A stretch of 64,000 nucleotides of DNA. Origin: Thermodesulfobacteriota bacterium (GTDB lineage: Bacteria; Desulfobacterota; QYQD01). Location: assembly GCA_031082315.1 (NCBI GenBank), contig JAVHLC010000001.1, forward strand, positions 221,224-285,223. Reading direction: 5' to 3'. Positions 18,299 through 60,128 of the stretch are shown here, piece by piece. The notes below the pieces were generated by a model. The model was given only the letters and a program-made list of their open reading frames with translations. It was not told where the DNA came from and ran no database searches. Each line of letters starts with the position of its first letter. The stretch's first letter is position 1. A program made the position numbers and the translations under genes.

Positions 18299-18324
18299 AT
18301 CCCGCCTATAACCTTCGTAAAATT

Positions 18325-19050: not shown

Positions 19051-19081
19051 CTCTCCTTATCCTTTTACAGAATTCCTGATT

Positions 19082-19855: not shown

Positions 19856-19881
19856 AAGTTATCGCAGTATTTTGTATTCTA

Positions 19882-20790: not shown

Positions 20791-20794
20791 TTAT

Positions 20795-22456: not shown

Positions 22457-22576
22457 ATCTTGTGTTTCTCTATAAAGTTCTATGGTTTTATTAAAATCAG
22501 ATTTCTTTACTGATCTCTAAGGTAGTGTTACATTTCAGAATTACCGTAACGGTCAGTCTGGCAACCAACGCTTTTG

Positions 22577-23911: not shown

Positions 23912-24016
23912 CAGTTTTTAGATATCTTGCGAAGCGGCTCTATAGAGCCAGGCCTGATACGCCGGGGGCAATCGCCAATGGCAAAGTACCTTAATGTCCC
24001 TTGCCGGAGGCCGGGA

Positions 24017-24772
24017 TTACCCTGCTGTCCTTTCCTTATATTTCTTTTGTATATATCCGGCGTCAAAATCAATTTCCCCTTTTTCCAGAAGATATTCTGC
24101 AAATCTGAAATCGACAGGATGGTCTATATTAATCTGGAAATCTTCATCCATTATGAAAGGGAGGCACTTTTCGCCATACAGATCCCCTGTTTTAAACAGG
24201 ACCTCTTTTCTTACAGCATAGACCTGACCGTTCCGCCAATATACCTCCGGCAAGTCCTGTCTCCGCGTAAAATCCTTAACATTCAGGTATGGCCTTAAAA
24301 ACCCGTCCTCAATCTTCCTTACCCAATGGGGATTTACATAATGAGGGGCTTTCATCACCGAGACAACGGAATCAACGCCCTTTTCAAGAAGAAGCTCTAT
24401 GCATGCATCTATTGTCTTATACGTCCTGAACGGCGTTGTCGGTTGCAGTAGTACCACTACATCCGTTTTAAAACCGCTACATTTTTCGATCGCCTCAACC
24501 GCATGAATAAGACATGGCGGCGATGCAGCACTGTCGGATGCGAGTTCGGAAGGCCGCAGGATTATTTCACATTCCAGACTTGATGACAATTCAAGTATTT
24601 CCCTGTCTTCTGAAGAGAGTATCAGCCTTGTTAATCTGCGCGAACGTTGCGCCTCTATAATCGTATATGCTACAAGGGGTACGTTCGCAAGCGGTTTCAT
24701 ATTCTTTCTTTTCACGCCCTTAGACCCGCCCCTCGCAAGGATAACACCCAAAACGTTCATTTCTTTTCCCAT
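24017..24772 (-). CDS. CMP-nonulosonic acid synthetase (acylneuraminate cytidylyltransferase family; NeuA/PseF/LegF-like)
   Basis: 251 aa. ILARGGSKGVKRKNMKPLANVPLV signature of CMP-Kdo/CMP-NeuAc synthetase family. Confidence 0.7.
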   Translation of the reverse strand: MGKEMNVLGVILARGGSKGVKRKNMKPLANVPLVAYTIIEAQRSRRLTRLILSSEDREILELSSSLECEIILRPSELASDSAASPPCLIHAVEAIEKCSGFKTDVVVLLQPTTPFRTYKTIDACIELLLEKGVDSVVSVMKAPHYVNPHWVRKIEDGFLRPYLNVKDFTRRQDLPEVYWRNGQVYAVRKEVLFKTGDLYGEKCLPFIMDEDFQINIDHPVDFRFAEYLLEKGEIDFDAGYIQKKYKERTAG

Positions 24773-25947
24773 GCCCTGCAGATCAAAAAAATCCCTTCCT
24801 TGACCGGTTCATCGTAAATAGGATGGAAAGAAATATTCTTAAAGTATGTCTTCAAAAAATACTCCACGCTTTTAGCAGTGTAATGAGTGACGTGGTTGAA
24901 CCAGTCCCAGCGGTGTCTTCCCTCTTCCACATACTTTTTTGCCGGATACCGGTTTGGAACCGAAAAGACCACGCTTCCATTTCTTTTAAGAAATGCCAGG
25001 ATCTTTTCTATAAGATTCTTATGTATGGAGTGGGGAATGTGTTCAAAGGTTTCGGTCATGTAGACGGCATCAAAGGATTCGGGTTCGAATTCGCATTCTT
25101 CTATCGGTGAGTTAATAAAACTGATGTTCTTTTGTATTTCGGCGGGCAGGTAATTTCTTAATTGTTCAGCTTCCTCGAATAGGTGTGGTACAATTTCCAC
25201 ACCAGTTATTATCTTTCCGTTTTCCGCCAGCTTTGTGGTAATAATGCCGCAACTGCATCCCACATCAAGACACCGCTTGCCCGTCGGTATCGAAAGCAGG
25301 GTTTCTATTCTTTGAGGAACATCTCTCGACGACCGGGATAGAATGGGATCGTGTGTTACATCCTTGCCCCAGTAGTCGCCGAGGTTGTCCTTGTACTTTA
25401 TTGCCTGCTTCATTTGTTCTTCGGTTGAATAATAGAAAGATTCCTTGTCTAAGTACTCATAATATTTGGGTAAATCATCCGCAGAAGAAAGACGCACCGC
25501 CTCTTTCTCGGTTATCATAAAGGGGAAGCAGTCATGCTTGGCAAGCTCGAAATCATCAAACCCCTCAGTTATAATCAGTGCAGGGACCGCAGCTCCCGAT
25601 GGCGCGTGCGTCACCAGATATGTAGCCTCTGTTTCTCTGAACCGCCGCAACCCTTCAGGAATCGTTTTCAGATTGAAAAAGGGGTAGCTCAAATCAACTG
25701 CCGCTTTTAATATGCCTCTGGAATCGCGTAAAAAGCCAAGATTGCCATCGGGGCTCTCCCACTCTACGCCGCGGTCAATGACATTGACAACCGCAGCCGG
25801 AAGCGCATCGCGTATTTCTCTGATACGCTTTTCATGGAAACCGTCAATGCCGAGAATCTCATCAACAGTCCTTTGATGGTAAATATCAACTATAATATTT
25901 TGCATGGATACCTTCAAATTCCTTCGCCCAGCAGGCCACGGTAACAC
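24757..25947 (-). CDS. two-domain protein with C-terminal class I SAM methyltransferase domain
   Basis: 396 aa. Motif I CLDVGCSCGIITTKLAENG in the C-terminal half. The N-terminal half is unassigned. Confidence 0.45.
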   Translation of the reverse strand: MLPWPAGRRNLKVSMQNIIVDIYHQRTVDEILGIDGFHEKRIREIRDALPAAVVNVIDRGVEWESPDGNLGFLRDSRGILKAAVDLSYPFFNLKTIPEGLRRFRETEATYLVTHAPSGAAVPALIITEGFDDFELAKHDCFPFMITEKEAVRLSSADDLPKYYEYLDKESFYYSTEEQMKQAIKYKDNLGDYWGKDVTHDPILSRSSRDVPQRIETLLSIPTGKRCLDVGCSCGIITTKLAENGKIITGVEIVPHLFEEAEQLRNYLPAEIQKNISFINSPIEECEFEPESFDAVYMTETFEHIPHSIHKNLIEKILAFLKRNGSVVFSVPNRYPAKKYVEEGRHRWDWFNHVTHYTAKSVEYFLKTYFKNISFHPIYDEPVKEGIFLICRAWEKK

Positions 25948-26753
25948 TCGTATGTATTCAGCTCTTCTTTCGAGAAAGATTCCGGGTCTTCCCCTTTGAT
26001 TTTTTCAAAAAACACCGCGTAATCCGCTAGTTCCCTCAGTTCCACCGGATCACATGCAAGGTGATGGCTTCTGCCCTTCATTTTCTTGTCCAGTGTAAAA
26101 TGTTTTTCGATCATTACCGCTCCCATCGCAATGGCAGCCTTGGGCACATCGACCCCAAGAGTATGGTCGCTGAATCCCACATTGGGTGTTAATGTCCTAA
26201 GCCAATTCATCCGCATAAGCCTGACTTTTTCAGGCGGCGTGGGGTAAAGGGTGGTGCAGTGCAATAGAGTGAATCTGCATCCGTTTTTGGTCTTGAGCAT
26301 GTCTACCGTTTTTTTGATCTCGTCCCGCGGAACACTGCCGGTTGAGAGGATCAGGTGACTGAAATTATCCGCAAGTTTGCCGACCATCTGCCTGCTTACC
26401 ATGTCATAACTGGCCACTTTTATATTTTTCAGGCCGAGGGACCGCAGAAAATCTATCCGCCCGATGTCGAAGCATGTCGTATAAAATGTTATTCCAGCCT
26501 TCCTGCACTCTTCCATCAATTCAAAATGCGCTTCGTCTGAAAGGTTGACACTCATGAACCTTTCCTTATCCGGATGGTTATCCCGCACATTTGAACCCAG
26601 ATACGACTGAAACTTTATCACGTCCGCACCTGCCTCTTTTGCAGCATGGATCATTTCTCTGGCAATACCGATATCCCCATTATGGTTCGAAGCCGCTTCA
26701 GCAACTATCACCGCTTTCATTTTTCCTCCAGCATATATCCGCTTCTTTTGCAA
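25914..26753 (-). CDS. N-acetylneuraminate / pseudaminate synthase family protein (NeuB/PseI-like, TIM-barrel part only)
   Basis: 279 aa. N-terminal VIVAEAASNHNGDIGIAREMIHAAKEAGADVIKFQ typical of NeuB. It seems to lack the C-terminal SAF domain. Confidence 0.65.
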   Translation of the reverse strand: MQKKRIYAGGKMKAVIVAEAASNHNGDIGIAREMIHAAKEAGADVIKFQSYLGSNVRDNHPDKERFMSVNLSDEAHFELMEECRKAGITFYTTCFDIGRIDFLRSLGLKNIKVASYDMVSRQMVGKLADNFSHLILSTGSVPRDEIKKTVDMLKTKNGCRFTLLHCTTLYPTPPEKVRLMRMNWLRTLTPNVGFSDHTLGVDVPKAAIAMGAVMIEKHFTLDKKMKGRSHHLACDPVELRELADYAVFFEKIKGEDPESFSKEELNTYECYRGLLGEGI

Positions 26754-27520
26754 CCGCCTAAAATAGACCTTATGTTGTGGAAGGCCGTCATCGCATGCTC
26801 GGTCATATTTTTCTCATCGAAAAGGAAATCCTGTGCATTCGCGGAACATAACTTGACCTGACGCCCAAGGTTTCGACCGTTATGGTCTTTTTCACCGTCC
26901 TCAAACCGGAATTCAGACAGGTCCACATCCGTATATACGGGGATAACAGCGTTAATCTCAAACCGTGAGCCTATACTCACCCATCCTTCAAACCGGCTCT
27001 CTTTTTCTTCCCAGCATATTGTGAGGGTGTCCAGGCACTCTCTGCCGAATTCCTCCTTAAATTTTTCCGGGTTAAAGAGCTGCCAACCCGGCACGATCTT
27101 ATCACATTTGTAAACCACTACTTCTTCCCAGAGTTCGCGAACCATGAGGTCGGGTTCCAGTATCTCTTCCGTCGAGTCAAAGCGCCCGGTCGGGATGGTA
27201 AATTTACCAGGGTTTGTCGGCGCACTACCGGAACGCTTTATTAGAGGGAACTGACCGTATCGGTCGAACAAAACCCCCCCGCCGCCTGCAAAAAAAACAG
27301 GTATAAACTCCTTGCAGCCCTGTTTTGAATCCTTATTGAATACGGTCCATCTTTCCAGATCATTGAGATACGATGATATCTCCCAATATTTACCAAACTC
27401 CGCGATAGCTAAACGGTAGTGTCTGTCCGTTATCTTCTCCAGATACCCCTTTGCAGCCCACCATTCACCTATAAACAGTCCTCCCAAGGCGTCCACAGGA
27501 GAAGACTCCTCCCCCAACAA
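26717..27520 (-). CDS. hypothetical protein
   Basis: 267 aa ORF, co-oriented and overlapping its neighbours by about 35 nt. No recognisable motif. Confidence 0.3.
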   Translation of the reverse strand: MLGEESSPVDALGGLFIGEWWAAKGYLEKITDRHYRLAIAEFGKYWEISSYLNDLERWTVFNKDSKQGCKEFIPVFFAGGGGVLFDRYGQFPLIKRSGSAPTNPGKFTIPTGRFDSTEEILEPDLMVRELWEEVVVYKCDKIVPGWQLFNPEKFKEEFGRECLDTLTICWEEKESRFEGWVSIGSRFEINAVIPVYTDVDLSEFRFEDGEKDHNGRNLGRQVKLCSANAQDFLFDEKNMTEHAMTAFHNIRSILGGCKRSGYMLEEK

Positions 27521-27659
27521 TATTTTCCTCTTTAATTCCTGTTTTTTGTATATAGCAACTTAACTAATTGCGCATAGTTTTCTCAGAGCGCTGTTGCCGG
27601 AAGATCATTCCTCGAATTTGGTTTCGATGGCCGTAGCGATGCTATTCAGCGATGGAAAA

Positions 27660-27993
27660 TATTCGCTATGAGTGCAGCGCCTATGTATCAACTTCCAGAC
27701 CCGTTCGATAGGATTGAAGGCCGGACTATAGGGCGACCCGGGCGGTCGGCGCGGATTCAGGGCAGGTTACACCTTGTGCGGCCAGAAGGACGGCATGGAG
27801 CCGATGGTCGTAGCGCGTCTCTTGAGATCGATGAATTTCGTCTTGAAGCGCAAGTATCATAGTTTCCGGATCTGAGATGGCCGGTGTTTTCATGAAAACA
27901 TAGTAATACAAACCAGCATGATACGTAATTACTTATGACATTATTAGTGAACAGCTTGGGGAAACGGAAATGAATTTTATCCACATAGTTCAC
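27660..27993 (-). pseudogene. possible transposase N-terminal (HTH_23-like) remnant in a GC-rich island
   Basis: Two overlapping short minus-strand ORFs. One reads ...ETRYDHRLHAVLLAAQGVTCPESAPTARVAL, resembling the RxxRaxaLLaxxGxS...A HTH of IS630-like transposases. No DDE domain follows. Local GC content is far above the flanks. Confidence 0.25.
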
Positions 27994-29083
27994 GTATCTT
28001 TTTTCCTATGTACCGTATCTTCTCCGGTTCAAGCATTGTATAAAAGGGCAATAGAATACCGGATCGGGCGAAAAGCTCCGAATTCGGCATTCCACCGCCT
28101 CTGGGAAAATTCCTGTAAGGAGGCATTTTGTGCAACGGGTAGAAAAGCGGACGCGTATCAATATTTCTCTTTTTCAGTTCCACTATCAGCTCATCACGGC
28201 TAATATCCAGTATATTTTCATCTATAAATACTGGGAAAAGCCAGTCGGCAATCTCGCCGGGGCTTTCATACCGGAATTCCAATCCGGATATTCCCTGAAG
28301 TTCTTCATAGTATACAAAGCGCAGCGATTTTCTTTTTTCAAGGATCTCATCTAATCTTTCAAGCTGGGCCACTCCAATGGCAGCGCTCAAATTTGTCAGA
28401 CGGTAATTATATCCTATCATGTCGTGCCAATACGTTTTTAGAGGGTTCATCCCATGATCCCGCAAAATCCTCATCTTTTCATAAAGTCGCTGGTCATCGG
28501 TCACGCATATTCCACCTTCGCCCATCGTTATTATTTTGTTCCCGTAAAAGCTGAAACATCCGATCTCGCCTATTGATCCTACCCTCTTGCCGTTTATTGA
28601 GGCCCCATGCGCCTCCGCGCAATCTTCAACTACAAAACATGAATACTCTCCGGCTATTTCGAGGATATCACCCATTAAACATGGATACCCCAGGAGGTGT
28701 ACGGGCATGATAGCCTTCGTTCTGTGAGAAATGACTTTTCTCACTTCCTTCGGATCAATGTTCCAATGGGATTCCATCGAATCCACGAAGACCGGCGTGG
28801 CTCCGGCGTGAATTACGGCGTTTGCACTGGCGGCAAACGTGAGGTTCGGAACAACAACCTCATCACCCTCTCCTATTCCAAGGGCGACAAGCGCCAGGTG
28901 CAGAGCCGTCGTACCGCTTGAGACCGCTACTGCGTATTTTGCGCCTAAAAACCCCGCAAACCCTTTTTCAAACAGCTCAATATATTTTCCCTTTGAGGAT
29001 ATCCAGCCGCTTTGAAGAGCATCCATGAGGTAACGCTCTTCATTCCCCTCAAAGGACGGCTCCATAACCGGAATCATTTTCAT
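27977..29083 (-). CDS. DegT/DnrJ/EryC1/StrS-family PLP-dependent sugar aminotransferase
   Basis: 368 aa. DALQSGWISSKGKYIELFEKGFAGFLGAKYAVAVSSGTTALHLAL and the PLP-lysine region FSFYGNKIITMGEGG. Confidence 0.8.
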   Translation of the reverse strand: MKMIPVMEPSFEGNEERYLMDALQSGWISSKGKYIELFEKGFAGFLGAKYAVAVSSGTTALHLALVALGIGEGDEVVVPNLTFAASANAVIHAGATPVFVDSMESHWNIDPKEVRKVISHRTKAIMPVHLLGYPCLMGDILEIAGEYSCFVVEDCAEAHGASINGKRVGSIGEIGCFSFYGNKIITMGEGGICVTDDQRLYEKMRILRDHGMNPLKTYWHDMIGYNYRLTNLSAAIGVAQLERLDEILEKRKSLRFVYYEELQGISGLEFRYESPGEIADWLFPVFIDENILDISRDELIVELKKRNIDTRPLFYPLHKMPPYRNFPRGGGMPNSELFARSGILLPFYTMLEPEKIRYIGKKIRELCG

Positions 29084-29159
29084 GGCAATATTCCTTGATT
29101 ACTTATGAATTCTTCATACCCATTAATGCTGCGGATATCCTCCGTCTACAATAACAACG

Positions 29160-29828
29160 TTAAAGAACGGTCAAAATCTCCCTTAATTGAGACAAATCAC
29201 TGATTACATAATCTGCAAACTCTCTATCCAAAGCGCTGTCCGGGTTGCCGTTCACTATACCCACACAAATAACGCCCAGCCTGCCCACAAGTCTCATATC
29301 CGCCTTCTCGTCACCTACGAACATGATCTGATCCGTCTTGAGTCCATATTTATTCTTAATATAGCTCATATGGGCTTTCCCCTTTATGAAATCACCGGAA
29401 GCGCCGAGCATTTCCTTAAAATATTTTTTTATATCAAGAAATACAGCTAACTCACATATCTCTTCCTTTACCGCCGAGCTCGAAACGAATAATTCAAAAC
29501 CCCTTGCCGCAAGCCACTGCAGAAGTTCCCTATTCTTTTCATCGAACACCCTGTTTTCCTTATAAGAAGTGGTATTCCTCAAAGTAAATTCTGAACTGAG
29601 CCTGTTAAACTCCAGAAGACTCAACTCTCTGCCCATATTTTCTATTGCAATGAGATTGAAAAGTTCCTTTCTTGAAACACCTGAATATTTCCTGTAGCTC
29701 AATGAGACATTTTCTGCATCCGCATTGTATATTTCTTCGAACATTGATGCGGCATTATTTATCTTCAACGGCATAGTATTGACAATCGTCCCGTCCCAGT
29801 CAAATACTACAGCCTTAATTCTTGCCAC
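29160..29828 (-). CDS. HAD-superfamily phosphatase
   Basis: 222 aa. Motif I VVFDWDGTIVNT and a C-terminal DE-motif region. Confidence 0.6.
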   Translation of the reverse strand: MARIKAVVFDWDGTIVNTMPLKINNAASMFEEIYNADAENVSLSYRKYSGVSRKELFNLIAIENMGRELSLLEFNRLSSEFTLRNTTSYKENRVFDEKNRELLQWLAARGFELFVSSSAVKEEICELAVFLDIKKYFKEMLGASGDFIKGKAHMSYIKNKYGLKTDQIMFVGDEKADMRLVGRLGVICVGIVNGNPDSALDREFADYVISDLSQLREILTVL

Positions 29829-31539
29829 TTAATCCCTCGTAAACAATACCTTCTACTCTTTCTATTTCCGCACAGGGAAATAAATGCCAGCAATCAAAAA
29901 GCAAGGCCGGTTTACTCATGAGATTAGTGAGGCCGAGAATATCCATGTCCAGATATGAACGGTGGTTGTTCATTATTAAAACGCAATCAGCTCCTTTAAA
30001 ACCTTCCCTCAGACTGGCTCCCACAACTCCATTACTTTCTATAACCTCTTTACCGACTACCGGATCATAGCCGGTTAATCGCCATGTTGTCTTGTCCTTA
30101 ATCAGATTTACAAGGTCTATAGCTGTTGAACCCCTTGTATCGGAGGTTTCAGGTTCCCCTTTGAAGGCAAATCCGATAATAAACACCTTTACGTCGTTAG
30201 CGTTATTTTTATACCTTTTCATGAAGGACTCCACCTTCCGAACAATGAACATAGGCATATATTCATTAATTTTTCTACTCATCAATGAGATCTCAGCCTT
30301 ATGTTCGACCTTTTCTGCCGAGTGTGCATACAAGTAAGGGTCTTTCTTTAAACATACTCCCCCAACTCCCGGGCTTGGTACTGGAATAGGATTCCTCGGA
30401 TAACCTTCGTTAGCCGCTTTAACTATATTCACCGCGTCAAGACCCCAGCGGTCACATATGAGGGCTAATTCATTAGCAAAGCCAAAAGAGAGATCTCTGA
30501 ATGAATTATTAATCAGTTTTACCATCTCGGCAGCTTCCAATGAGGGCACCCTTACAACCGTATTATTGAAGTAAGAAAAAAAGTTTACCGACTCATCCAG
30601 ACTTCTCTTATTCAGTCCCCCCATAACCTGAGGAATAGACCTCAGCTCTTCCAATGCGTTACCCTCTACTGTTCTTTCAGGGGCAAATGAAAGGTAAAAA
30701 TCTTCATCGGCCTTTAATCCCGATGCTTCCTCAAGAATGGGAAGGACTAAATTACGGGTTGTTCCGACAGGAACGGTAGATCTCAATATCACAGTATCTC
30801 TTTTCTTCAACACCTTACCCACTTTCCTCGTCGCTTTTCTAAGCAAATCCAGATTCGGCTTCCGATTCTTACCTATTGGTGTGCTGACACTTAAAATATA
30901 AATATCCGCCTTCCCTTCCGTCAGGTCAGAGTCGGCTCTTAAATTCCCTCTAGCCACATGAAATTTCAGGAGCGACGGGAGGCCTTTTTCATAGAAGTGA
31001 GGTCTCCCTGTATTTATATGGTTAACGACCTCTTTATTTATATCATAACCGATTACCTTAAATCCGGCATCGGCCAAAACAATGGACAAGGTAAGACCCA
31101 CAAAACCCAAACCGATAACACAAACCGTCTTATTTTTTACATCAGAGCCTTTCCACAACTCAAAAAAGTTTAAAACATCATCTACCCTTCCGTCCTTATC
31201 CACTATAATTACCTGATCAACCTTTACATCTCTGATCCTTCCGCTCGTTTCCACTTTCTTCGTCACCAATTCAATCATTTTCGTTTCGGAAAGATCTTTT
31301 GGCACTGTTATCGGGTCGTTAATCATAATATTTTCAACAGCAGAATCGATATCAACATCGTTTACCAGTGCCCGTCTTATATCCCCATCGGTTACTATAC
31401 CCAAAAGTTTCTTGTTATTGTTAACCACTAGCGCAATGCCGGTTGGGGCTCCTCTTGATGCAGCTCCGGTAATTATCTTCATAGTCTCACGAATCGTATA
31501 TTTAGATGAAATCATTATGGATTCTATCTTTTTATTCAT
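29815..31539 (-). CDS. CBS-pair domain fused to UDP-glucose/GDP-mannose dehydrogenase-family nucleotide-sugar dehydrogenase
   Basis: 574 aa. N-terminal tandem CBS domains, then the NAD-binding motif KTVCVIGLGFVGLTLSIVLADAG and the catalytic region of TviB/WecC-like dehydrogenases. Confidence 0.7.
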   Translation of the reverse strand: MNKKIESIMISSKYTIRETMKIITGAASRGAPTGIALVVNNNKKLLGIVTDGDIRRALVNDVDIDSAVENIMINDPITVPKDLSETKMIELVTKKVETSGRIRDVKVDQVIIVDKDGRVDDVLNFFELWKGSDVKNKTVCVIGLGFVGLTLSIVLADAGFKVIGYDINKEVVNHINTGRPHFYEKGLPSLLKFHVARGNLRADSDLTEGKADIYILSVSTPIGKNRKPNLDLLRKATRKVGKVLKKRDTVILRSTVPVGTTRNLVLPILEEASGLKADEDFYLSFAPERTVEGNALEELRSIPQVMGGLNKRSLDESVNFFSYFNNTVVRVPSLEAAEMVKLINNSFRDLSFGFANELALICDRWGLDAVNIVKAANEGYPRNPIPVPSPGVGGVCLKKDPYLYAHSAEKVEHKAEISLMSRKINEYMPMFIVRKVESFMKRYKNNANDVKVFIIGFAFKGEPETSDTRGSTAIDLVNLIKDKTTWRLTGYDPVVGKEVIESNGVVGASLREGFKGADCVLIMNNHRSYLDMDILGLTNLMSKPALLFDCWHLFPCAEIERVEGIVYEGLSGKN

Positions 31540-31634
31540 CAGTCACCCTTAATCCTAATTATATTTTTATATTTGCTTCAGTTTCCTGTACATTCCTGAC
31601 TTTTTTAAATGATAAACTAAGCGGCTTCGGTGTG

Positions 31635-33833
31635 TTATCTCCTTTGGATGATTTCTTCCACCTGGAGAGCTATTTCGGTCGCCTGGATCTGTTCCCATAA
31701 CTCAATAGGCCAGTGTCCACCACTTATAAGGGCGTCACAAAAAACATGCATCTCGTCAAATAAGCCCTTGTCCTGATTCTTTTTTTTAAACCCTGAAAGC
31801 TTTGAGCCATGAATATCAACAGATTTATAATCGTTAAGTTCAATTATCATTCCGTCCACATATATCTCCATTCGTTCCTTAGGCAGGTCCCGTGAGCCCA
31901 TGGCCGTATATACCAGGTTAGCAACGGACCCATCTTCGAAAGTGATAGTAGCTATAAAATTATCATTTTCAAGGTAGTAGCCGTTGGCTTTAGAGATTGC
32001 AGCAGCCTGAACAGAAGTGAATTTAGAACCTACAATGTAGGTAAATAGGTCATATATGTGACACGCCTCGCCGATGTTCCGCCCCCCACCCTCAGGACCA
32101 TGTACCCAACTATCGGATGGAATATATCCGGCGTTCATGCGGTAATTTATGATTAATGGATTGGTCCTCTTTTCAACTACTTCTTTTATTCTCCTTATAA
32201 AAGGAGCGAATCTCCTGTTAAAGCCTGCCATAAGGATTTGGCCGCTATTCTCTTTAGCGTTAAAGTAAGCGCATATCTCTTCCATCTCCTTACGCTTTAC
32301 CGCCAGGGGTTTCTCTACAAAGACATGTTTGCCTGCCCTGAGGGCAAGCAGCGCGTACTCGGCATGAAGGTTATGCCGAGTACATATGATAACAGCATCG
32401 GTTTCCCTGTCATCAAGTATCTCATTAATATCCGTTGTCGCATAAGCCGCATCATAGCGCTTCGACACCGTGAGAACTTTGTGCCCGCTACGGCTCATAA
32501 CCCCTCTCAAAATGCATCTATCCGAAAGCCTTTTGATATTCGGGAGATGATTCGATAGGGCAAAATTCCCTGCACCTATTAAAGATATGCCTATTTTTGA
32601 CTTCTTAACAACCTCAGCTGTTGAATTTTTAATGACCAGAGATTCCGCGCCGTTCTTCTTCTCCGGATATTCCAAAAGCACCATCATGGCTCCGGAGCTT
32701 AATTGGGCATAAGCCTGAGGGGCTTCATCTATTATTTTACGGTCGCTTATCAAAGATGCCACGTCTATACTCTTGTTCGCCAGAAGATCAAGGTATGCCG
32801 ACATATTGCGGTTTTCGGTCCATCGAACGTAACCGATCGGATAATCCATCCCATTTTCCTCATATGCCGTATCGTATCTTCCTGGCCCGTAGGATGTTGA
32901 GATAAAAAAATCCAGTTCCTTACTGTAAAAATCGCTTCGATTTAAATTTAATCCGATATCCCCGATCAAAACCACTCTTCCTTTTTTTCTGCACATATTA
33001 AAAGCTGTAGATATAACCTCATCCGAGGGAGTAGATGCACAAATCACCACGCCGTCTGCGCCATGGCCCATTGTCAATCTGTAGGTATGCTGAACGGGAT
33101 CCAAAAGTTTCGAATTGAACGCCCACCGCATTCCCAACGACGCAGCAATGTTCACTCTATCATCATCAGTGTCAATACCAAGCGCTTTACACCCATTCGC
33201 TTTTAGCAGTTGTCCTACAATCTGCCCGATGGCTCCAAGCCCTATTACCACAAAAGTTTCCCCTAATGTGGGCTGCAATCTGCGTATACCCTGAAGCGCA
33301 ATGGCCCCAATCGTTACTGTAGATGCAAGGTCAGCGGCCAGATTGTCCGGCACCTTAACCACAAGGTTCTTGGGGACGCAAACCAACTCGGCATGATTGG
33401 CAAACTGGCCACCAACCGCAACCAAGCCCCCTTCCGGGAATCCCTTTGCGCCTTTTGAGCCCACCACTCTACCCGCTGCAGAGTACCCCATCGGGAATTC
33501 AGCCTCGAGGGTACTACGAGCAATACTAAGCGAATTAGAAAGCCCGCGATCTTTAATGCTATGAATCACTCTGTGGGGTTGTTCGACCACGCGTTTCCAA
33601 AGCGGTTTCGCAGAATTCTTGATTCCAGCCAACTCGGTGCCGCTGGATATGCACGAGTACAGGAGCCGCACCAGCACACGTCCATCAGACAACATTGCGG
33701 CCGGCACATCTTTAACCAAAATCTGTCCTTTTTTGAGTAATACCTGTTTCATTTGTCCACAGTTTTGCCCGCCACACCGAAAATCATTATTAAAGTGCCG
33801 GGAGTCTGTCGGAGTTAGATTTCGGCCCGGCAA
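31635..33833 (-). CDS. bifunctional oxidoreductase: MDR zinc-type alcohol-dehydrogenase-like domain fused to Gfo/Idh/MocA domain
   Basis: 732 aa. N-terminal GroES-like/MDR domain (VIGLGAIGQIVGQLL), C-terminal Gfo/Idh/MocA (IGISLIGAGNFALSNHLPNIKR...EKP). Confidence 0.65.
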   Translation of the reverse strand: MPGRNLTPTDSRHFNNDFRCGGQNCGQMKQVLLKKGQILVKDVPAAMLSDGRVLVRLLYSCISSGTELAGIKNSAKPLWKRVVEQPHRVIHSIKDRGLSNSLSIARSTLEAEFPMGYSAAGRVVGSKGAKGFPEGGLVAVGGQFANHAELVCVPKNLVVKVPDNLAADLASTVTIGAIALQGIRRLQPTLGETFVVIGLGAIGQIVGQLLKANGCKALGIDTDDDRVNIAASLGMRWAFNSKLLDPVQHTYRLTMGHGADGVVICASTPSDEVISTAFNMCRKKGRVVLIGDIGLNLNRSDFYSKELDFFISTSYGPGRYDTAYEENGMDYPIGYVRWTENRNMSAYLDLLANKSIDVASLISDRKIIDEAPQAYAQLSSGAMMVLLEYPEKKNGAESLVIKNSTAEVVKKSKIGISLIGAGNFALSNHLPNIKRLSDRCILRGVMSRSGHKVLTVSKRYDAAYATTDINEILDDRETDAVIICTRHNLHAEYALLALRAGKHVFVEKPLAVKRKEMEEICAYFNAKENSGQILMAGFNRRFAPFIRRIKEVVEKRTNPLIINYRMNAGYIPSDSWVHGPEGGGRNIGEACHIYDLFTYIVGSKFTSVQAAAISKANGYYLENDNFIATITFEDGSVANLVYTAMGSRDLPKERMEIYVDGMIIELNDYKSVDIHGSKLSGFKKKNQDKGLFDEMHVFCDALISGGHWPIELWEQIQATEIALQVEEIIQRR

Positions 33834-33860
33834 GCGGATTCAAGCCCACGCCTCCGATTT

Positions 33861-34691
33861 TTACTCATTAGCTTTTTTTCTACGGGCAAATGATTCCTGT
33901 ATAAAGGCACCAAATACACCAATCATAAAACCTGAAAACGTACCTAATGATACAACGCGAAACGTTTTGGGTCTGGCAGACCCTTCGGGCAATATGGCGG
34001 GGTCTACAACCCTGGTATTTTCTGAGCGCAGTGGGCTGTTGGCTAACCGAACTTCTCCAAGCCTTTGTTTTAAGGTACCCAGGTTGTTTCCCCTATCGTT
34101 TAAGTTTGCGGTAAATAGGATTACCGCCGGGACGTCAATTTTTGGATTCCTCTGGATTTTCGCCAGGTTTTCCCTCAACACCCTGATTTCTGCTTCGGAA
34201 GCAGCTATCCGGACGTTTAAATCTGCTTCAATGTCCCTGGCTACTCTCATGGCCTCATCAAACCTTACTTTATGCCTTTCTACTACCTCGTTAGCTACGG
34301 CATTTACAATCGCCACGGCCTGTTCGGGAGATTCAGCCTCGGTCTGAACATTGATTAAGTTGGTGTTTCGCTCTACAGAGGCATTTATATTTAGATGCTT
34401 CGGTTTAAGACCATTTTTCTGTATAACCGTGGCCAGAAAAGGCCTGCTTTTAATTTGGGCTGCAACATTATTCACATCATCGATACTGCCCATATTCCCT
34501 ATACATCCTACGCTCAAAATTAGCTCAGAGCGGTAACTCTTGGGGAGCAGAAGGCTTATGACGGCAGCCGATATAGCGCAGAGGAGGGTAATAGACAAAA
34601 TAAGCACTTTTCTTTTCCACAGAACTCCAAGATAAGCCCACAGGTCTATTTCGTCTTCGCAGATATCGGGAAGTCTTTCGTTGGTATTCAT
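33861..34691 (-). CDS. Wzz-like polysaccharide chain-length determinant (PCP family)
   Basis: 276 aa. N-terminal DEIDLWAYLGVLWKRKVLILSITLLCAI TM segment plus a second C-terminal TM segment and a coiled middle region. Confidence 0.6.
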   Translation of the reverse strand: MNTNERLPDICEDEIDLWAYLGVLWKRKVLILSITLLCAISAAVISLLLPKSYRSELILSVGCIGNMGSIDDVNNVAAQIKSRPFLATVIQKNGLKPKHLNINASVERNTNLINVQTEAESPEQAVAIVNAVANEVVERHKVRFDEAMRVARDIEADLNVRIAASEAEIRVLRENLAKIQRNPKIDVPAVILFTANLNDRGNNLGTLKQRLGEVRLANSPLRSENTRVVDPAILPEGSARPKTFRVVSLGTFSGFMIGVFGAFIQESFARRKKANE

Positions 34692-34888
34692 GAAGTCTCC
34701 TTAAAAAGATGGCGGGCTGGAATGTTCTGGAGGGGGATTAAACCACCAGTCGAGAAATTTCCTTGCTACTTTAACCGCCTTTTCGCATCTCTCCTTGATT
34801 TCAAAGACAGAAGCCAGTTTGTATTTGTTAGTTCTTTCTCATTTCAAGTGGGTAATCCAAACATCCCCGATCGTTTCTTTCACAAGTT

Positions 34889-34977
34889 TTGAAGCTCCCC
34901 GCAGTCCGCCTTGGGCGGACGGGGAATCTCCGTATGCAAGGTAAAATGCATCGTATTCGCTCGCTATGCATGTTCAA
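34889..34977 (-). repeat. conserved box plus hairpin intra-operon element, copy 2 (longer hairpin with a 34-nt insertion)
   Basis: Same flanks as 2275..2326 (TTGAAGCTCCCCGCAG ... CGCTCGCTATGCATGTTCAA). Hairpin CCCCGCAGTCCGCC-TTG-GGCGGACGGGG. The box overlaps the last 4 codons of the uxs-like gene. Confidence 0.5.
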
Positions 34978-35902
34978 AATATATAATTGTCTGTTTTAAG
35001 CCCTCTTCCAGGCCGATCTTCGGTTCCCAGCCGAGTGTCTCTCTGGCCAGTGTGATATCCGGTTGTCTCTGGATCGGGTCGTCCTGGGGGAGCGGTTTGA
35101 ATACGATCCTGGACTTTGAGTTGGTCAGGCCGATGATTTTTTGAGCCAGCTCCAGGATAGTAAACTCTCCTGGGTTGCCCAGATTGACCGGCCCGGTAAG
35201 GTCGTCCGGGGAGTCCATGAGGCGGATAAAGGCCTCGATCATGTCATCCACATAGCAAAAAGACCGGCTCTGAGAGCCAGCGCCAAAGACAGTGATGTCC
35301 TTTCCAGAAAGGGCCTGCACTATAAAGTTGCTTACCACCCGGCCGTCGTTGGGATGCATGCGCGGGCCGTAGGTATTGAATATCCTGGCCACCTTGATGC
35401 GCAGTCTGTGCTGACGGTGGTAATCAAAAAATAAGGTCTCGGCACAGCGCTTACCCTCATCGTAGCAGGAGCGGAACCCAATGGGATTGACGTTTCCCCA
35501 GTAGCTTTCTGGTTGTGGATGAACCTTCGGGTCTCCATAAACCTCGCTGGTCGAGGCCTGAAGTATCTTGGCCTTGAGCCGTTTGGCCAGCCCCAGCATA
35601 TTGATAGCGCCATGTACGCTGGTCTTGGTAGTTTGGACCGGATCATGCTGGTAGTGAATGGGGCTGGCCGGGCAGGCCAGGTTGTAGATTTCATCCACCT
35701 CGACATATAGAGGAAAGGTGATATCGTGGCGCAACACCTCAAGGCAGGAATGGTCCAGGAGAGGCTGAATATTCGCCTTTGTACCGGTAAAAAAGTTATC
35801 GACGCATATCACCTCATGGCCGTCTTTAAGCAGTCTCTCGCAGAGATGGGAACCAAGAAATCCGGCTCCGCCGGTAACCAGAATTCGCTTACGTAGGTGC
35901 AT
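34964..35902 (-). CDS. UDP-glucuronate decarboxylase (UXS-type SDR; NAD-dependent epimerase/dehydratase family)
   Basis: 312 aa. [34 protein letters not shown] and the YxxxK region. First biosynthetic gene downstream of the terminator. Confidence 0.8.
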
Positions 35903-35947
35903 ATAGATAACCTCGCTTTCTTTATTATTCAGAAAATCCTTTTAAAT

Positions 35948-35984
35948 CCCCCCAGCCCCCCTTTGCAAAAGGGGGGCTGGGGGG
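35948..35984 (-). terminator. strong intrinsic-terminator-like hairpin (C6-AG-C6 / G6-CT-G6 perfect stem) between the regulator gene and the biosynthetic operon
   Basis: 37-nt perfect palindrome CCCCCCAGCCCCCCTTTGCAAAAGGGGGGCTGGGGGG. On the minus strand it is followed by ATTTAAAAGGATTTT. It lies 40 nt downstream of the 36027 stop and only about 45 nt upstream of the uxs start. Confidence 0.6.
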
Positions 35985-36026
35985 ATTTTCATGGTTCGCA
36001 GGTGGTGCCTCCACAACGAGCAATTG

Positions 36027-36641
36027 TTAGGGATTAGACGTAATTTGGTGCGGCGCCAATGAGAGTAAATCAAAAACCATCCGCTCAGAGCCGCCGTTTT
36101 CTCTTATGTCTCTTATTTTTTCATCACAGTCTTCTATAGTGGTTATAAATATCGCGGCCTCGGGTAGCGTGGAAAGGTCCTCCGGCGAACAGATCGGATG
36201 ACCGAAGAAGGTACCCCCTTCGTTTTTTCTGTCAATTATACCCACCAGGGTTATGGAGCTTCCGTACAAACAGTGGTACAACAATTCCGCTGTCTCTCCG
36301 GCGCCGTAAAAAATGATTGCCCGGATGCGGTCATTCTCAAGTTCCCGGAGTCTTTTCTGAATAGCTTTTCTTATATCCCGGTAAAACCTGAAACAATAGT
36401 CGAAGTACTCTGCAACCAGGCGTGATTTTGCATCCCGGCCTTTTGGCGTCAATACGTATGTTGAATGTTTAGGCGGCAGGACACAAACCTCGAAATATCC
36501 GTCTCTGACGGCGCGTTTTATAAAGAGGTTGATGAGGCCGAGGGATATATTGAGCCTTTTTGACAACTCCCGTTGGGTCACATGGCCGTTTTGTTCAACG
36601 GCATCAAGTAGGCGCAAAAAATGACGTTTTTCTCTTTCCAT
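36027..36641 (-). CDS. winged-HTH transcriptional regulator fused to a Rossmann-like domain resembling the N-terminal domain of PglD/NeuD/WbaP-type sugar-modifying enzymes
   Basis: 204 aa. N-terminal HTH (VTQRELSKRLNISLGLINLFIKRAV). C-terminal IIFYGAGETAELLYHCLYGSSITLVGIIDRKNEGGTFFGHPICSPEDLSTLPEAAIFITTIED. Confidence 0.5.
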   Translation of the reverse strand: MEREKRHFLRLLDAVEQNGHVTQRELSKRLNISLGLINLFIKRAVRDGYFEVCVLPPKHSTYVLTPKGRDAKSRLVAEYFDYCFRFYRDIRKAIQKRLRELENDRIRAIIFYGAGETAELLYHCLYGSSITLVGIIDRKNEGGTFFGHPICSPEDLSTLPEAAIFITTIEDCDEKIRDIRENGGSERMVFDLLSLAPHQITSNP

Positions 36642-36761
36642 TATTCAAGAGATGCGTAATGGGTCATGAGTGATTAGCAAGAAAAGGACATAGCTCCGCT
36701 TTGTCGGTTACATACGTATTACCTGGTAACCGATTAAGGGGTGATTGATGGGTAGGTTAAA

Positions 36762-37364
36762 TCACAGCGGCGTTACATCCGCCGCATCCAGTTCTACAGA
36801 AACAGATCGTTGCAAAAGTTCAAGAGAGATAACCAGCCGGTCTTTCCCTGTATTCATACGAACCAGTAAACCCTCACACCCTTCAAATGGCCCTTTGCGG
36901 ACACGCACCCTCTGGCCGACCCGGAGATAGGCAAACGGCAAGATCTGCTCACCGGATGCGATAACAGTCTTTAGTGATTCAATCTGGATATCGGGTATGT
37001 CCACCGGGCGTTGGTTGTTTTCTCCGAGAAAGCGAACCACGCCATTTATTTTTAAGACCTCAAGGGCGTGATAAGGGGTAAAATTGATTCTTATGAAGAT
37101 ATAGCCAGGGAATAGCGGCACCTGGATTTTTAGCTTCCGGTCTTTTCTACGACTCCACCGGGTAACACAGGGGAAGAAATTTTCAATGGATTTTTTTTGT
37201 AATTGAGACCAGATGGTAAACTCGTGATGGCATCGGGTATAGATAGCATACCAACCGGCTGAAGGCGCCAGACAGGTTTGATCCGGAACGCCTCCAAGGC
37301 ATGCCGGATTCTGTCCTGAGATATCTTCGTCCCTGAAGAATGGTTGAGAGTTTGACATATCCAC
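36762..37364 (-). CDS. NusG-family paralog (RfaH/UpxY/LoaP-like operon-specific transcription antiterminator)
   Basis: 200 aa. NGN-like N-terminus (WYAIYTRCHHEF...) and a C-terminal KOW motif (VGQRVRVRKGPFEGCEGLLVRMNTGKDRLVISLELL). First gene of the 37-kb minus-strand locus. Confidence 0.7.
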   Translation of the reverse strand: MDMSNSQPFFRDEDISGQNPACLGGVPDQTCLAPSAGWYAIYTRCHHEFTIWSQLQKKSIENFFPCVTRWSRRKDRKLKIQVPLFPGYIFIRINFTPYHALEVLKINGVVRFLGENNQRPVDIPDIQIESLKTVIASGEQILPFAYLRVGQRVRVRKGPFEGCEGLLVRMNTGKDRLVISLELLQRSVSVELDAADVTPL

Positions 37365-37537
37365 GCTCGATTTTCGGCGCCCAAGGCGTTCAGTTTGTGA
37401 ACACTATAGGAACACGAAGAACTTGTCAAGCAAAAACGCTAACAGTTGGGATAAATCAGGGCGTGGCTAAGGCGTTACAATGGCCATATATCTGGGTGGC
37501 TACTTGGTTATGGCCTGAGAACAGGATTGGGTAAGAA

Positions 37538-37741
37538 TTAGAATATAGTGAATTTTTCTTTAGCCACCCAGATGTCATCCCCGGCCTTTACCGAAATTTG
37601 GGCCTGGCTTTTAAGCACCCTGACCAAGAGGTCGTTTTGGCGCTCCATGATGATGCCGGCGAATACCTTATTTTCCCGGTCGGCCCAGCAGGGCTCAACC
37701 TCGGCCGGTATGAAAAATCCATATTTTTTGTAGTACGGCAT
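37538..37741 (-). CDS. small hypothetical protein (67 aa) upstream of the NusG paralog
   Basis: ORF only, no motif. Could instead be untranslated leader. Confidence 0.2.
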   Translation of the reverse strand: MPYYKKYGFFIPAEVEPCWADRENKVFAGIIMERQNDLLVRVLKSQAQISVKAGDDIWVAKEKFTIF

Positions 37742-38052
37742 GGTGTCACCTCTTGATTGAGTAATGTTTCACAATTAGATACCGCAAGGAAAAATCTTTG
37801 TCAAGTACATTTTGTGAAAAAAAGAACAACATAAATTTTGGCAAATTCGTGAAAAAGCCTTTTCACCACTGAGTACGCAGAGCCCCCAGAGAAAAATATA
37901 AACTATTCAATGCGTTATCTCAGCATTCTCCGCGATCTCTGCGGTAATTTTTTACTTTTTACGAGGCTATCAATTTTGGATGCCTCCATTATTATTTGAC
38001 CATTTCCTGCAAAAAGATATAAAGTCCAACGTTAGGAAAAGAGGATCTGCCT
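37742..38052. promoter_or_regulatory. divergent promoter region between the minus-strand glycan locus and radA
   Basis: 310-nt AT-rich non-coding gap between divergent genes. The plus strand has a TTGACC-17 nt-ATAAAG candidate for radA. radA appears to start with TTG, preceded by AAAAGAGGA. Confidence 0.35.
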
Positions 38053-43428: not shown

Positions 43429-43439
43429 CAAATTCAAAG

Positions 43440-43545
43440 CTCAAAGTTCAAAAAAAGCCTAAATGACTAAATGACGAAAACTTCACGGTCTGGGTTTTGC
43501 CATTTGTCATTTATTTGAACTTTGGATTTTGGCCTTTAGATTTTC
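43440..43545 (+). terminator. long imperfect palindrome (CAAAGTTCAAA...AATGACTAAATGAC / GTCATTTGTCATTTATTTGAACTTTG) downstream of rplI
   Basis: Inverted repeat seen directly. Function as terminator or attenuator ahead of dnaB is inferred. Confidence 0.35.
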
Positions 43546-49267: not shown

Positions 49268-49404
49268 CCGCGCTACAACTGGATTTTTACGAAAGCATTA
49301 TCCCTGCCTTAGTAACCGTTCACCGTTATCAGTTCACCGTTGTCCGTGAAAAGCACGAAAAGCTTCTTTTTTGGTGAACGTTGAACGGTAAACGGTGAAC
49401 ATAT
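49268..49404. repeat. palindromic GTTCACCGTT-motif region between the UvrD-like helicase and MBL hydrolase genes
   Basis: CAGTTCACCGTTGTCCGTG ... GGTGAACGTTGAACGGTAAACGGTGAAC inverted repeats around an A/T-rich centre. Confidence 0.4.
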
Positions 49405-59790: not shown

Positions 59791-59897
59791 GATAGCCAGG
59801 CGCCCCTGCGGCACACGAAAGTTCTTGCTGCCGTTGCTTCCTTCCGGACCTAGCGGGGTTCGCAAGTTTCCGTTGCGCAGGACCCGGCTATCAAATT

Positions 59898-60117: not shown

Positions 60118-60128
60118 GCGGGTTACCT

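What the first reader, a model, noticed from the sequence alone, without database searches (positions are those of the whole stretch)
35948..37364. NusG-paralog antiterminator plus unusual wHTH-Rossmann regulator, separated from the 35-kb operon by a perfect 37-nt terminator hairpin
The locus is headed by a RfaH/UpxY-like NusG paralog (NGN + KOW) and a 204-aa protein that combines a winged HTH with a domain resembling the N-terminal Rossmann-like module of PglD/NeuD/WbaP sugar enzymes, which could be a nucleotide-sugar-sensing regulator. Immediately downstream lies a perfect C6-AG-C6/G6-CT-G6 hairpin, only about 45 nt before the first biosynthetic gene (uxs). That leaves no room for an independent promoter. 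The simplest reading is a conditional terminator that the NusG paralog helps RNA polymerase read through, i.e. processive antitermination control of the whole 35-kb operon.
Basis: partly seen in the sequence, partly recalled or inferred. Interest (0 to 1): 0.65.

Follow-up and report, generated by a model that had tools for sequence, protein, structure and literature searches.

The report
Antiterminator operon head with mobile hairpin
A long sugar-polymer gene cluster in an uncultured sulfate-reducer relative appears to be switched on by a conserved kit (a sensor-like repressor with its DNA site, plus an anti-stop factor with its loading site), while the eye-catching hairpin is a mobile repeat that differs between near-identical strains.

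Summary
There is a UpxY-family NusG paralog (36762..37358, minus strand), a 204-aa winged-helix plus small Rossmann-like protein (36027..36641), and a perfect hairpin (35944..35988) 45 nt before a UXS-like gene.

The hairpin is not a conserved control element. Contigs with an identical 204-aa protein carry a different palindromic insert at the same junction, a 61%-identical ortholog has only a 20-nt gap, and a ~95-nt copy of the element sits in an unrelated locus. Its U-tract is poor.

The conserved elements lie elsewhere:
- **Operator.** A palindrome GTTCA-N5-TGAAC abuts the -10 of the promoter upstream of the NusG paralog (37388..37402). There are 117 exact copies in 416 kb of related loci against 0.4 expected, almost all at that position.
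- **ops-like element.** A hairpin plus GCGGAGC-TATG lies between the NusG paralog and the winged-helix gene (36689..36733). It is present in 37 of 41 evaluable loci, and its core matches the GCG-N-AGC of Bacteroides opsX.

Most likely this is a Rex-like autorepressor plus processive antitermination that lets RNA polymerase cross inserted hairpins. All mechanism is inferred, not measured. I rate it a new variant of a known kind, of moderate interest.

The parts
37403..37429 (-). Sigma-70-type promoter upstream of the NusG paralog. The -35 is TTGACA (37424..37429). The -10 is TATAGT (37403..37408, 15-nt spacer) or TAGTGT (37401..37406, 17-nt spacer).
   Evidence: Read directly from the sequence. 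The 82 nt up to the ATG are about 97% identical to L009, although everything further upstream is unrelated. CTTGACAA is the commonest 8-mer upstream of the first regulatory gene, present in 42 of 59 non-redundant related loci. No transcription start was mapped.
37388..37402 (-). Palindromic operator GTTCACAAACTGAAC (GTTCA-N5-TGAAC), directly abutting the -10. It is the inferred binding site of the winged-helix/Rossmann protein.
   Evidence: It is the only exact match in the window. Related loci hold 117 exact matches in 416 kb against about 0.4 expected. 66 of 75 loci have at least one copy, and 34 have two or more, within -260..+60 of the first regulatory gene. The consensus is cGTTCAAtTatTGAACa, usually two copies 24 nt apart, starting 3-15 nt after TTGACA. 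Binding is inferred, not shown.
36762..37358 (-). UpxY-family NusG paralog (198 aa, NGN + KOW, about 35-aa N-terminal extension).
   Evidence: Pfam NusG 4.6e-19. NCBIfam UpxY 133.6 bits (cut-off 100), while RfaH and LoaP are below their cut-offs. It aligns to solved NusG/RfaH chains through the KOW domain.
36689..36733 (-). ops-like element. A hairpin TCGGTTAC/GTAACCGA (36726..36733 and 36704..36711) is followed by GCGGAGC (36693..36699) and TATG (36689..36692).
   Evidence: GCGGAGC is in 24 of 24 NusG-to-SDR gaps and in 37 of 41 loci with at least 300 nt after the NusG paralog. The extended motif never occurs on the opposite strand. Support for the upstream hairpin: self duplex energy -8.35 versus -4.73 shuffled, p = 6.7e-7. 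The element is conserved in L008 and L009. The core matches the GCG-N-AGC non-template hairpin of Bacteroides opsX (PMC11685472).
36027..36641 (-). Winged-helix (PadR/MarR-like, residues 1-64), long helix (66-103) and small Rossmann-like domain (108-195; GAGETA at 113-118, invariant D137).
   Evidence: Family size: 440 50%-identity cluster representatives at E <= 1e-30.
35925..36025 (-). Variable intergenic cassette, a ~95-nt repeat element whose core is the perfect hairpin 35944..35988.
   Evidence: Homology to L001 stops at 36026 and resumes at 35924. The same element is in L004. A decayed copy is in L043 and a copy in an unrelated locus is in L024. The core palindrome occurs in 29 genome stretches from many phyla.
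34964..35902 (-). First biosynthetic gene, a UXS-like SDR (312 aa).
   Evidence: Pfam Epimerase 5.3e-50 and GDP_Man_Dehyd 1.4e-48. An SDR of this type follows the module in most related loci.
34889..34966 (-). Second mobile hairpin element (CCCCGTCCGCC/GGCGGACTGCGGGG), overlapping the uxs stop codon.
   Evidence: The same element is inserted between the ops-like site and the regulator start codon in L002 (identical regulator protein) and L008.

Best explanation
This is the control head of a long polysaccharide operon, built from four conserved parts.

1. One sigma-70-type promoter (-35 at 37424..37429) is overlapped at its -10/start region by the palindrome GTTCA-N5-TGAAC (37388..37402).
2. 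The 204-aa winged-helix/Rossmann-like protein most likely binds that palindrome as a dimer. It would repress the promoter until a small nucleotide-type ligand (NAD(H), a nucleotide sugar or a CoA-type compound, identity unknown) releases it, as in Rex.
3. Transcription first makes the UpxY-family NusG paralog.
4. RNA polymerase then reaches an ops-like pause element (hairpin + GCGGAGC + TATG, 36689..36733). There the paralog loads and makes the polymerase resistant to pausing and termination.

The modified polymerase then transcribes the regulator gene, crosses the C6AGC6/G6CTG6 hairpin and a second repeat hairpin after uxs, and continues into the roughly 35-kb cluster.

The hairpin itself is a polymorphic, dispersed palindromic repeat element inserted downstream of the loading site. 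It is tolerated, and perhaps made harmless, by antitermination rather than being part of the switch.

**Shown:** the sequence features, their conservation and linkage, the predicted folds, and the polymorphism.
**Inferred:** protein binding to the operator, the ligand, pausing and loading at the ops-like site, and read-through.
For: - **Linkage.** The NusG paralog is immediately adjacent to the regulator gene in 61 of 72 evaluable loci. All paralogs tested pass the UpxY cut-off.
- **Operator.** There are 117 exact palindromes against 0.4 expected, essentially only at the promoter of the first regulatory gene. Residues G35, L36, N38 and R43, which lie in the predicted third helix (34-46), are invariant, matching the invariant half-site.
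- **ops-like element.**
  - Occurrence: 24 of 24 gaps and 37 of 41 loci.
  - It is strand-specific.
  - The published Bacteroides opsX is a pause hairpin plus YGCGNAGCR, and E. coli ops is GCGGTAGC (PMC11685472).
- **Co-transcription.** L009 has a 20-nt gap between the regulator and uxs. No promoter was called between the hairpin and uxs.
- **Hairpin as a mobile insert.**
- **Hairpins downstream of the motif.** At least 12 of 23 related loci hold strong, non-homologous hairpins between the ops-like motif and the first gene.
Against: - There are no expression data, and no start site or pause site has been mapped.
- The hairpin upstream of GCGGAGC is individually significant in only 19 of 33 non-redundant loci. 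Its register varies, so a column-wise covariation test failed.
- In most related loci the gene order is regulator then NusG paralog, and the ops-like site has its own -10-like box. The single-promoter layout proposed here applies only to the window's clade.
- The promoter spacer is 15 nt if TATAGT is the -10.
- Sequence similarity of the C-terminal domain to Rex or PglD-type domains is below significance (E 0.1-1).
- Eleven loci have the regulator without an adjacent NusG paralog.
Confidence: 0.6

Rival explanations
1. The hairpin is a conditional intrinsic terminator that forms the designed control point, and the NusG paralog exists to read through it.
For: - The stem is very stable.
- It lies downstream of the ops-like site, so a modified polymerase would meet it.
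- The alternative allele also folds into a long hairpin.
- Many related loci have some strong hairpin between the ops-like motif and the first gene, so an any-hairpin barrier could be selected.
- A TransTermHP-style tail score that I worked out by hand is about -2.7, marginally passing the usual -2.5 limit if the tail is counted from the G/C stem.
Against: - The hairpin is not conserved. Near-identical strains have a different cassette, L009 has none, and L043 has uncompensated arm mutations.
- The same element occurs in an unrelated locus, and the palindrome is dispersed across phyla.
- The U-tract is poor, and the terminator scan did not call the site.
Confidence: 0.2
2. The hairpin ends a separate two-gene regulatory transcript, and the uxs operon starts from its own promoter.
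For: In most related loci the regulatory pair is separated from the first biosynthetic gene by 134-972 nt, with an AT-rich -10-like box about 45 nt before the ops-like motif.
Against: - In the window's clade the ops-like motif lies upstream of the regulator gene, not after it.
- Only 45 nt separate the hairpin from uxs, and no promoter was called there.
- L009 has a 20-nt gap.
Confidence: 0.07
3. The hairpin + GCGGAGC motif is not a NusG-paralog loading site. It could be a second operator for the regulator (note the flanking GGTTA...TAACC repeat) or a leader RNA element with another function.
For: - GTTA and TGTAAC are conserved about 17 nt apart around the motif without clear covariation.
- The motif also occurs upstream of regulator genes that lack an adjacent NusG paralog.
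Against: - The motif is strictly strand-specific and non-palindromic.
- Its core equals the GCG-N-AGC of known ops sites, with a Y-G step after it and a G ten positions upstream of that step (and the sequence).
- It follows the NusG paralog gene in 37 of 41 loci.
- No Rfam family matches it.
Confidence: 0.15
4. The GTTCA-N5-TGAAC palindrome is bound by some other regulator, and the 204-aa protein acts elsewhere, for example on the NusG paralog itself in the manner of UpxZ.
For: - Binding was not tested.
- The protein occupies the gene position that UpxZ holds next to UpxY in Bacteroides (PMC11685472).
Against: - The palindrome tracks the regulator gene in 66 of 75 loci, including loci without a NusG paralog.
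- The protein has a canonical DNA-binding winged helix with invariant residues in the predicted third helix.
- There is no Pfam UpxZ match.
Confidence: 0.12

Closest known systems
Bacteroides UpxY/UpxZ with opsX sites (capsular polysaccharide operons; PMC11685472)
   Same: - A locus-encoded UpxY-family NusG paralog sits at the head of a polysaccharide operon.
- The candidate loading site is built as an upstream hairpin plus a GCG-N-AGC core in the early transcribed region.
   Different: - The partner gene is a DNA-binding winged-helix/Rossmann protein with a palindromic operator, not UpxZ.
- No invertible promoter was seen.
- In the window the ops-like site lies after the paralog gene, not before it.
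- The phylum is Thermodesulfobacteriota, not Bacteroidota.
RfaH with ops/JUMPstart in Proteobacteria
   Same: A NusG paralog is recruited at a short non-template-strand motif. E. coli GCGGTAGC compares with GCGGAGC here. Both control long envelope polysaccharide operons.
   Different: - The RfaH models score below their cut-offs.
- The 12-mer GGCGGTAGnnTG is not enriched in the window, and no minus-strand match lies in the leader.
- The loop is one base shorter.
- The paralog is encoded in cis.
LoaP (Firmicutes)
   Same: A NusG paralog encoded with its target cluster, described as acting on termination sites (PMC12691694, abstract listed).
   Different: The LoaP model scores below its cut-off (79.5 against 125). 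The recruitment element proposed for LoaP is a nascent RNA hairpin.
Rex redox-sensing repressor
   Same: - The operator is palindromic. From my own knowledge the Rex box is TTGTGAA-N4-TTCACAA, a similar geometry.
   Different: - There is no significant sequence match (E 0.1).
- The domain is shorter (about 95 aa).
- The half-site GTTCA differs.
- The wHTH is PadR/MarR-like with a long linking helix.
- The ligand is unknown.
REP/BIME- or MITE-like intergenic palindromic repeats
   Same: - It is a short hairpin-forming intergenic element.
- It shows presence/absence and replacement polymorphism between near-identical strains.
- Copies lie in unrelated loci, and several such families are in this window.
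   Different: The copy number in the source genome is unknown. No transposase or target-site duplication could be assigned. The G6/C6 core recurs across many phyla.
TIGR04176, MarR-family EPS-associated regulator
   Same: A winged-helix regulator associated with exopolysaccharide loci. It is the best NCBIfam hit to residues 6-102.
   Different: The score is 47.5 bits against a cut-off of 88. That family is about 105 aa and lacks the Rossmann-like domain.

Membership tests
UpxY family NusG paralog | Scores above the NCBIfam NF033644 cut-off and has an NGN domain plus a KOW domain | tested here: met
   133.6 bits against 100. Pfam NusG 4.6e-19 and KOW E = 0.09. It aligns to NusG through residue 195.
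UpxY family NusG paralog | Encoded at the head of the polysaccharide operon it controls | tested here: met
   Position in the window and in related loci.
UpxY family NusG paralog | Cognate leader site with a pause hairpin plus a GCG-N-AGC non-template hairpin | tested here: met
   Sequence and comparative evidence only, set against the published definition. Function was not tested.
UpxY family NusG paralog | Adjacent UpxZ inhibitor gene | tested here: not met
   The adjacent gene is HTH_24 plus a Rossmann-like domain, with no UpxZ match in Pfam at E <= 0.1.
UpxY family NusG paralog | Enhances elongation or suppresses termination in its operon | not testable with these tools
   Needs transcription assays or genetics.
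RfaH | Scores above TIGR01955/NF006534, and the target has the 12-nt ops GGCGGTAGnnTG | tested here: not met
   81.2 bits against 144.5, and 61.8 against 124. The ops pattern with up to 2 mismatches gave 47 hits against 38.9 expected, and no minus-strand match lies in the leader.
LoaP | Scores above NF033641 | tested here: not met
   79.5 bits against 125.
Rex family repressor | Winged helix plus Rossmann NAD(H)-binding domain | tested here: inconclusive
   [not shown]
Rex family repressor | Binds NADH/NAD+ and a Rex box | not testable with these tools
   The operator found here is GTTCA-N5-TGAAC. Ligand binding needs biochemistry.
Intrinsic (rho-independent) terminator | G+C-rich stem-loop immediately followed by a U-tract | tested here: not met
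   The stem is present, but the tail AUUUAAAAGG has fewer than 5 U in 8 and the site was not called.
Conserved regulatory terminator/attenuator of this operon | Present at the same place in orthologous loci | tested here: not met
   It is replaced in L001, L002, L003, L005 and L008, absent in L009 and decayed in L043.
Dispersed palindromic repeat (REP/MITE-like) | Homologous copies in unrelated genomic contexts, and insertion polymorphism | tested here: met
   The L024 copy lies between NlpC/P60-like and HD-domain-like genes (my reading of the translated ORFs, no domain scan run) and shares about 95 nt. There are 29 genome stretches with the core, up to 4 per genome. Allelic replacement is shown.
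Dispersed palindromic repeat (REP/MITE-like) | Many copies within the source genome | not tested
   Only one copy lies in the 64-kb window. The rest of the genome was not available.
TIGR04176 MarR_EPS | Scores above the family cut-off | tested here: not met
   47.5 bits against 88.

The most novel reading that the evidence does not exclude
A widespread, undescribed two-tier switch for envelope polysaccharide operons in Thermodesulfobacteriota. A Rex-like metabolite-sensing repressor would gate synthesis of a UpxY-type antiterminator, which then loads at its own class of ops site. Interchangeable mobile hairpins downstream of that site would serve as the termination barriers that make the operon strictly dependent on the paralog.
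Probability: 0.3. Interest if true: 0.7.

Novelty: new variant of a known kind. Interest (0 to 1): 0.55.

Why it matters
Specialised NusG paralogs are understood in detail mainly for RfaH and, since 2024, for Bacteroides UpxY. This locus suggests the UpxY/ops logic, including a GCG-N-AGC core behind a hairpin, also operates in an unrelated environmental phylum.

Here the partner differs. It is a DNA-binding, probably ligand-sensing repressor with a sharply defined operator, rather than the protein inhibitor UpxZ. That yields three directly testable sequence elements (operator, ops-like site, hairpin inserts) and a protein family of at least 440 50%-identity cluster representatives (E <= 1e-30) that no curated family model captures above its cut-off.

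It also offers a natural experiment. Near-identical strains carry different hairpins, or none, in the same transcribed spacer. This could show whether processive antitermination buffers operons against invasion by repeat elements.

Tried and rejected
- **E. coli ops consensus.** Searching the window for GGCGGTAGnnTG gave no enrichment and no minus-strand match in the leader.
- **Rfam.** The gathering scan on the window and seven loci, and the E-value scan on 35900..38052, found nothing for the ops-like motif. The hairpin gave only sub-threshold hits, mostly miRNA-precursor families.
- **RNAalifold.** Run on a MAFFT alignment of 36 motif instances, it did not recover the upstream hairpin because its register and loop length vary. 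I replaced it with per-sequence duplex energies against shuffled and cross-locus controls.
- **Fuzzy-regex motif search.** It timed out and was replaced by blastn-short.
- **Literature.** A search for the hairpin sequence found only an unrelated paper. A search for NusG plus Deltaproteobacteria, exopolysaccharide and winged helix found none.
- **Gene context of the 29 genome copies.** Mechanical ORFs were too noisy for a conclusion.
- **Internal terminators.** Terminator-like sites are not clearly enriched within 16001..36000 (25 against 19.7 +/- 4.8), so I make no claim about internal terminators.
- **G-quadruplex.** I rejected a G-quadruplex reading of the G6 runs, because there are only two runs per strand.
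Full report
**1. What is in the sequence**

All relevant genes are on the minus strand. Reading in the direction of transcription:
- a conserved 67-aa ORF (37538..37741)
- a NusG paralog (36762..37358 from the ATG; the mechanical ORF starts at a GTG at 37364)
- a 204-aa protein (36027..36641)
- a 125-nt spacer holding the hairpin
- a 312-aa SDR epimerase/dehydratase of UXS type (34964..35902)
- about 30 further co-directional ORFs down to position 82

The further ORFs include Wzz, a UDP-sugar dehydrogenase, a DegT aminotransferase, a flippase, PEP mutase, a glycerophosphotransferase and a heparinase-like protein.

RadA is divergent at 38053. A 96%-identical regulator on an NCBI MAG labelled Thermodesulfobacteriota (GCA_049323255.1) has the same synteny.

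**2.

The two 14-nt arms are exact and unique in the window. The perfect inverted repeat is 21 nt per arm, 35944..35988. The fold is far more stable than shuffles, z = -6.5.

The NusG paralog passes the curated UpxY cut-off (133.6 against 100 bits) but not those of RfaH, LoaP or NusG.

The 204-aa protein has three parts:
- A long helix.

The domain carries GAGETA (GxGxxA) after strand 1 and an invariant Asp after strand 2.

**3. The hairpin is a mobile, polymorphic insert**

Seven metagenome contigs encode exactly the same 204-aa protein. Five of them reach the junction and were aligned:
- L004 has the poly-C hairpin.
- L001, L002, L003 and L005 carry a completely different ~128-nt palindromic cassette (CACGAAG-type), placed exactly between the stop codon and the uxs ribosome-binding region.
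- That cassette also folds into a long hairpin.

The remaining two contigs, L006 and L007, end inside the same CACGAAG-type cassette.

Other comparisons agree:
- Window-to-L001 identity is 98% up to 36026 and resumes at 35924.
- The 96% relative L008 has the CACGAAG-type cassette.
- The 61% ortholog L009 has only 20 nt between the regulator and uxs.
- L043 has the element with uncompensated changes in the left arm.
- A ~95-nt copy, including the asymmetric left flank GAGGCACCACCYGCGAACCATGAAAAT, lies in a different MAG between what read from the translations as an NlpC/P60-like gene and an HD-domain gene.
- The 28-base core with any 3-15-nt loop occurs in 29 genome stretches from cyanobacteria, Planctomycetota, Nitrospinota, Syntrophaceae, methanotrophs and others, up to four per genome. 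By my own arithmetic, fewer than 0.001 are expected by chance.

A second hairpin element (34889..34966, overlapping the uxs stop codon) is found in L002 and L008 at another site. There it lies between the ops-like element and the regulator start codon.

The window holds several further palindromic repeat families. The tail after the hairpin is U-poor, and the terminator scan did not call it.

**4. What is conserved instead**

*(a) Gene pair.* A scan of metagenome contigs found at least 437 relatives of the regulator, and 80 loci were fetched. In 61 of 72 evaluable loci a UpxY-type NusG paralog lies immediately downstream of the regulator gene. In the window's clade the order is reversed.

*(b) Operator.* Upstream of the first regulatory gene there is CTTGACAA followed by one or two copies of GTTCA-N5-TGAAC.
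- There are 117 exact copies in 416 kb, against about 0.4 expected.
- 66 of 75 loci have at least one copy at that position, and no copy lies in a NusG-to-SDR gap.
- The consensus is cGTTCAAtTatTGAACa, with the usual spacing between copies 24 nt.
- The window has one exact copy at 37388..37402, abutting the -10.
- It sits inside an 82-nt block that is about 97% identical to L009, although sequence further upstream is unrelated.

*(c) ops-like element.* Every one of 24 gaps between the NusG paralog and the first SDR gene contains GTAAyCGAAGGGGCGGAGCT(G/A)TG.
- 37 of 41 loci with enough sequence have GCGGAGC within 450 nt after the paralog.
- The extended motif occurs 32 times in position, 5 times elsewhere on the same strand, and never on the opposite strand.
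- Six of the eleven loci that lack an adjacent paralog carry a variant of the motif directly upstream of the regulator gene.
- The 11 nt before GCGGAGC pair with an upstream segment more strongly than shuffled controls (-8.35 against -4.73 kcal/mol, p = 6.7e-7). They also pair more strongly than cross-locus controls (p = 0.0085). Visible compensatory changes occur in L068, L070 and L090.
- In the window the element is TCGGTTAC...GTAACCGA-CAAA-GCGGAGC-TATG at 36689..36733, between the paralog and the regulator gene. It is conserved in L008 and L009 while the flanks differ.

Saba et al. 2024 (PMC11685472) define Bacteroides opsX as a ~40-bp element. It has a pause hairpin followed by a non-template-strand hairpin YGCGNAGCR. 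They give GCGGTAGC for E. coli ops. GCGGAGC is GCG-N-AGC. Counting back from the T-G step of the downstream TATG, a G sits at -10, which fits the elemental pause pattern as I know it.

**5. Mechanism proposed**

The regulator represses the single promoter through the palindrome and is released by a nucleotide-type ligand. The paralog is then made, loads at the ops-like pause site, and carries RNA polymerase through the regulator gene, the inserted hairpins and the long operon.

In the commoner gene order the same parts form a cascade. The regulator controls the paralog, and the paralog acts on a separate leader that has its own -10-like box about 45 nt before the motif.

At least 12 of 23 related loci have strong but unrelated hairpins between the motif and the first gene. 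This fits either tolerance of insertions or selection for any barrier. I cannot separate the two readings.

**6. Limits**

Nothing here measures transcription, binding or ligand. The copy number of the repeat in the source genome is unknown. The operon's extent of 35 kb rests on co-orientation only, and what I read as an IS630-like remnant interrupts it at 27520..27977.

**7. Verdict**

The features are real. The terminator-centred interpretation is largely replaced by a conserved promoter/operator plus ops-like module. I rate it a new variant of the UpxY/RfaH kind of control, of moderate interest.

Noticed in passing
window 37538..37741 (-): A 67-aa ORF with no Pfam or NCBIfam match and a TTGACA-containing promoter-like sequence that I read upstream of it. 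It is conserved upstream of the module in L001, L003, L004 and L008 but absent in L009. A perfect 13-nt inverted repeat (37490..37502 and 37561..37573) spans its 3' end.
   Followed up: partly
window 37860..37960 (-): Another palindromic repeat of the CGCAGAGA / TCTCTGCG type lies between the 67-aa ORF and divergent radA. It includes a terminator-like site on the plus strand at 37930..37944.
   Followed up: no
window 43435..43531, 49318..49400, 59941..60248: Three more families of intergenic tandem-heptamer palindromes (for example TCAGCCATCAGCTA.../...AGCTGATAGCTGA). The last group flanks two tRNA genes and lies next to the SRP RNA (59791..59889). The genome appears rich in such elements.
   Followed up: no
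window 27520..27977 (-): A 457-nt gap inside the operon that reads like a remnant of an IS630-type transposase C-terminus (…IERVWKLIHRRCTHSEYFPSLNS…). This rests on my own reading only.
   Followed up: no
window 20795..22456, 9670..12708 and 13780..15213 (-): The operon encodes PEP mutase fused to a nucleotidyltransferase, a PEP-utilising enzyme and a glycerophosphotransferase. This suggests a phosphonate- or phosphoglycerol-decorated glycan.
   Followed up: no
window 36027..36641 compared with L009 4354..4962: The regulator gene has diverged much more (70% nt, 61% aa) than its neighbours: the NusG paralog is 92% nt identical and uxs 86% nt. L001, with an identical regulator, has different genes after uxs (APS kinase instead of Wzz). 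The operon head is a recombination mosaic.
   Followed up: partly
L112 4798..8744: Here a MNT/HEPN toxin-antitoxin pair is inserted between the operator/ops-like region and the regulator gene. The regulator is followed directly by Wzm/Wzt ABC-transporter genes, with no adjacent NusG paralog.
   Followed up: partly
L043 2436..2828: Only residues 82-204 of the regulator are encoded, downstream of two epimerase-like genes. This looks like a truncated or rearranged copy, and it carries the decayed hairpin element.
   Followed up: no
L115 1998 and L116 6702: A second copy of the ops-like motif variant (GTAAACCACC(A/G)(G/A)GCGGAGCT) lies downstream of the regulator gene as well as upstream. Some loci therefore have two candidate loading sites.
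   Followed up: no
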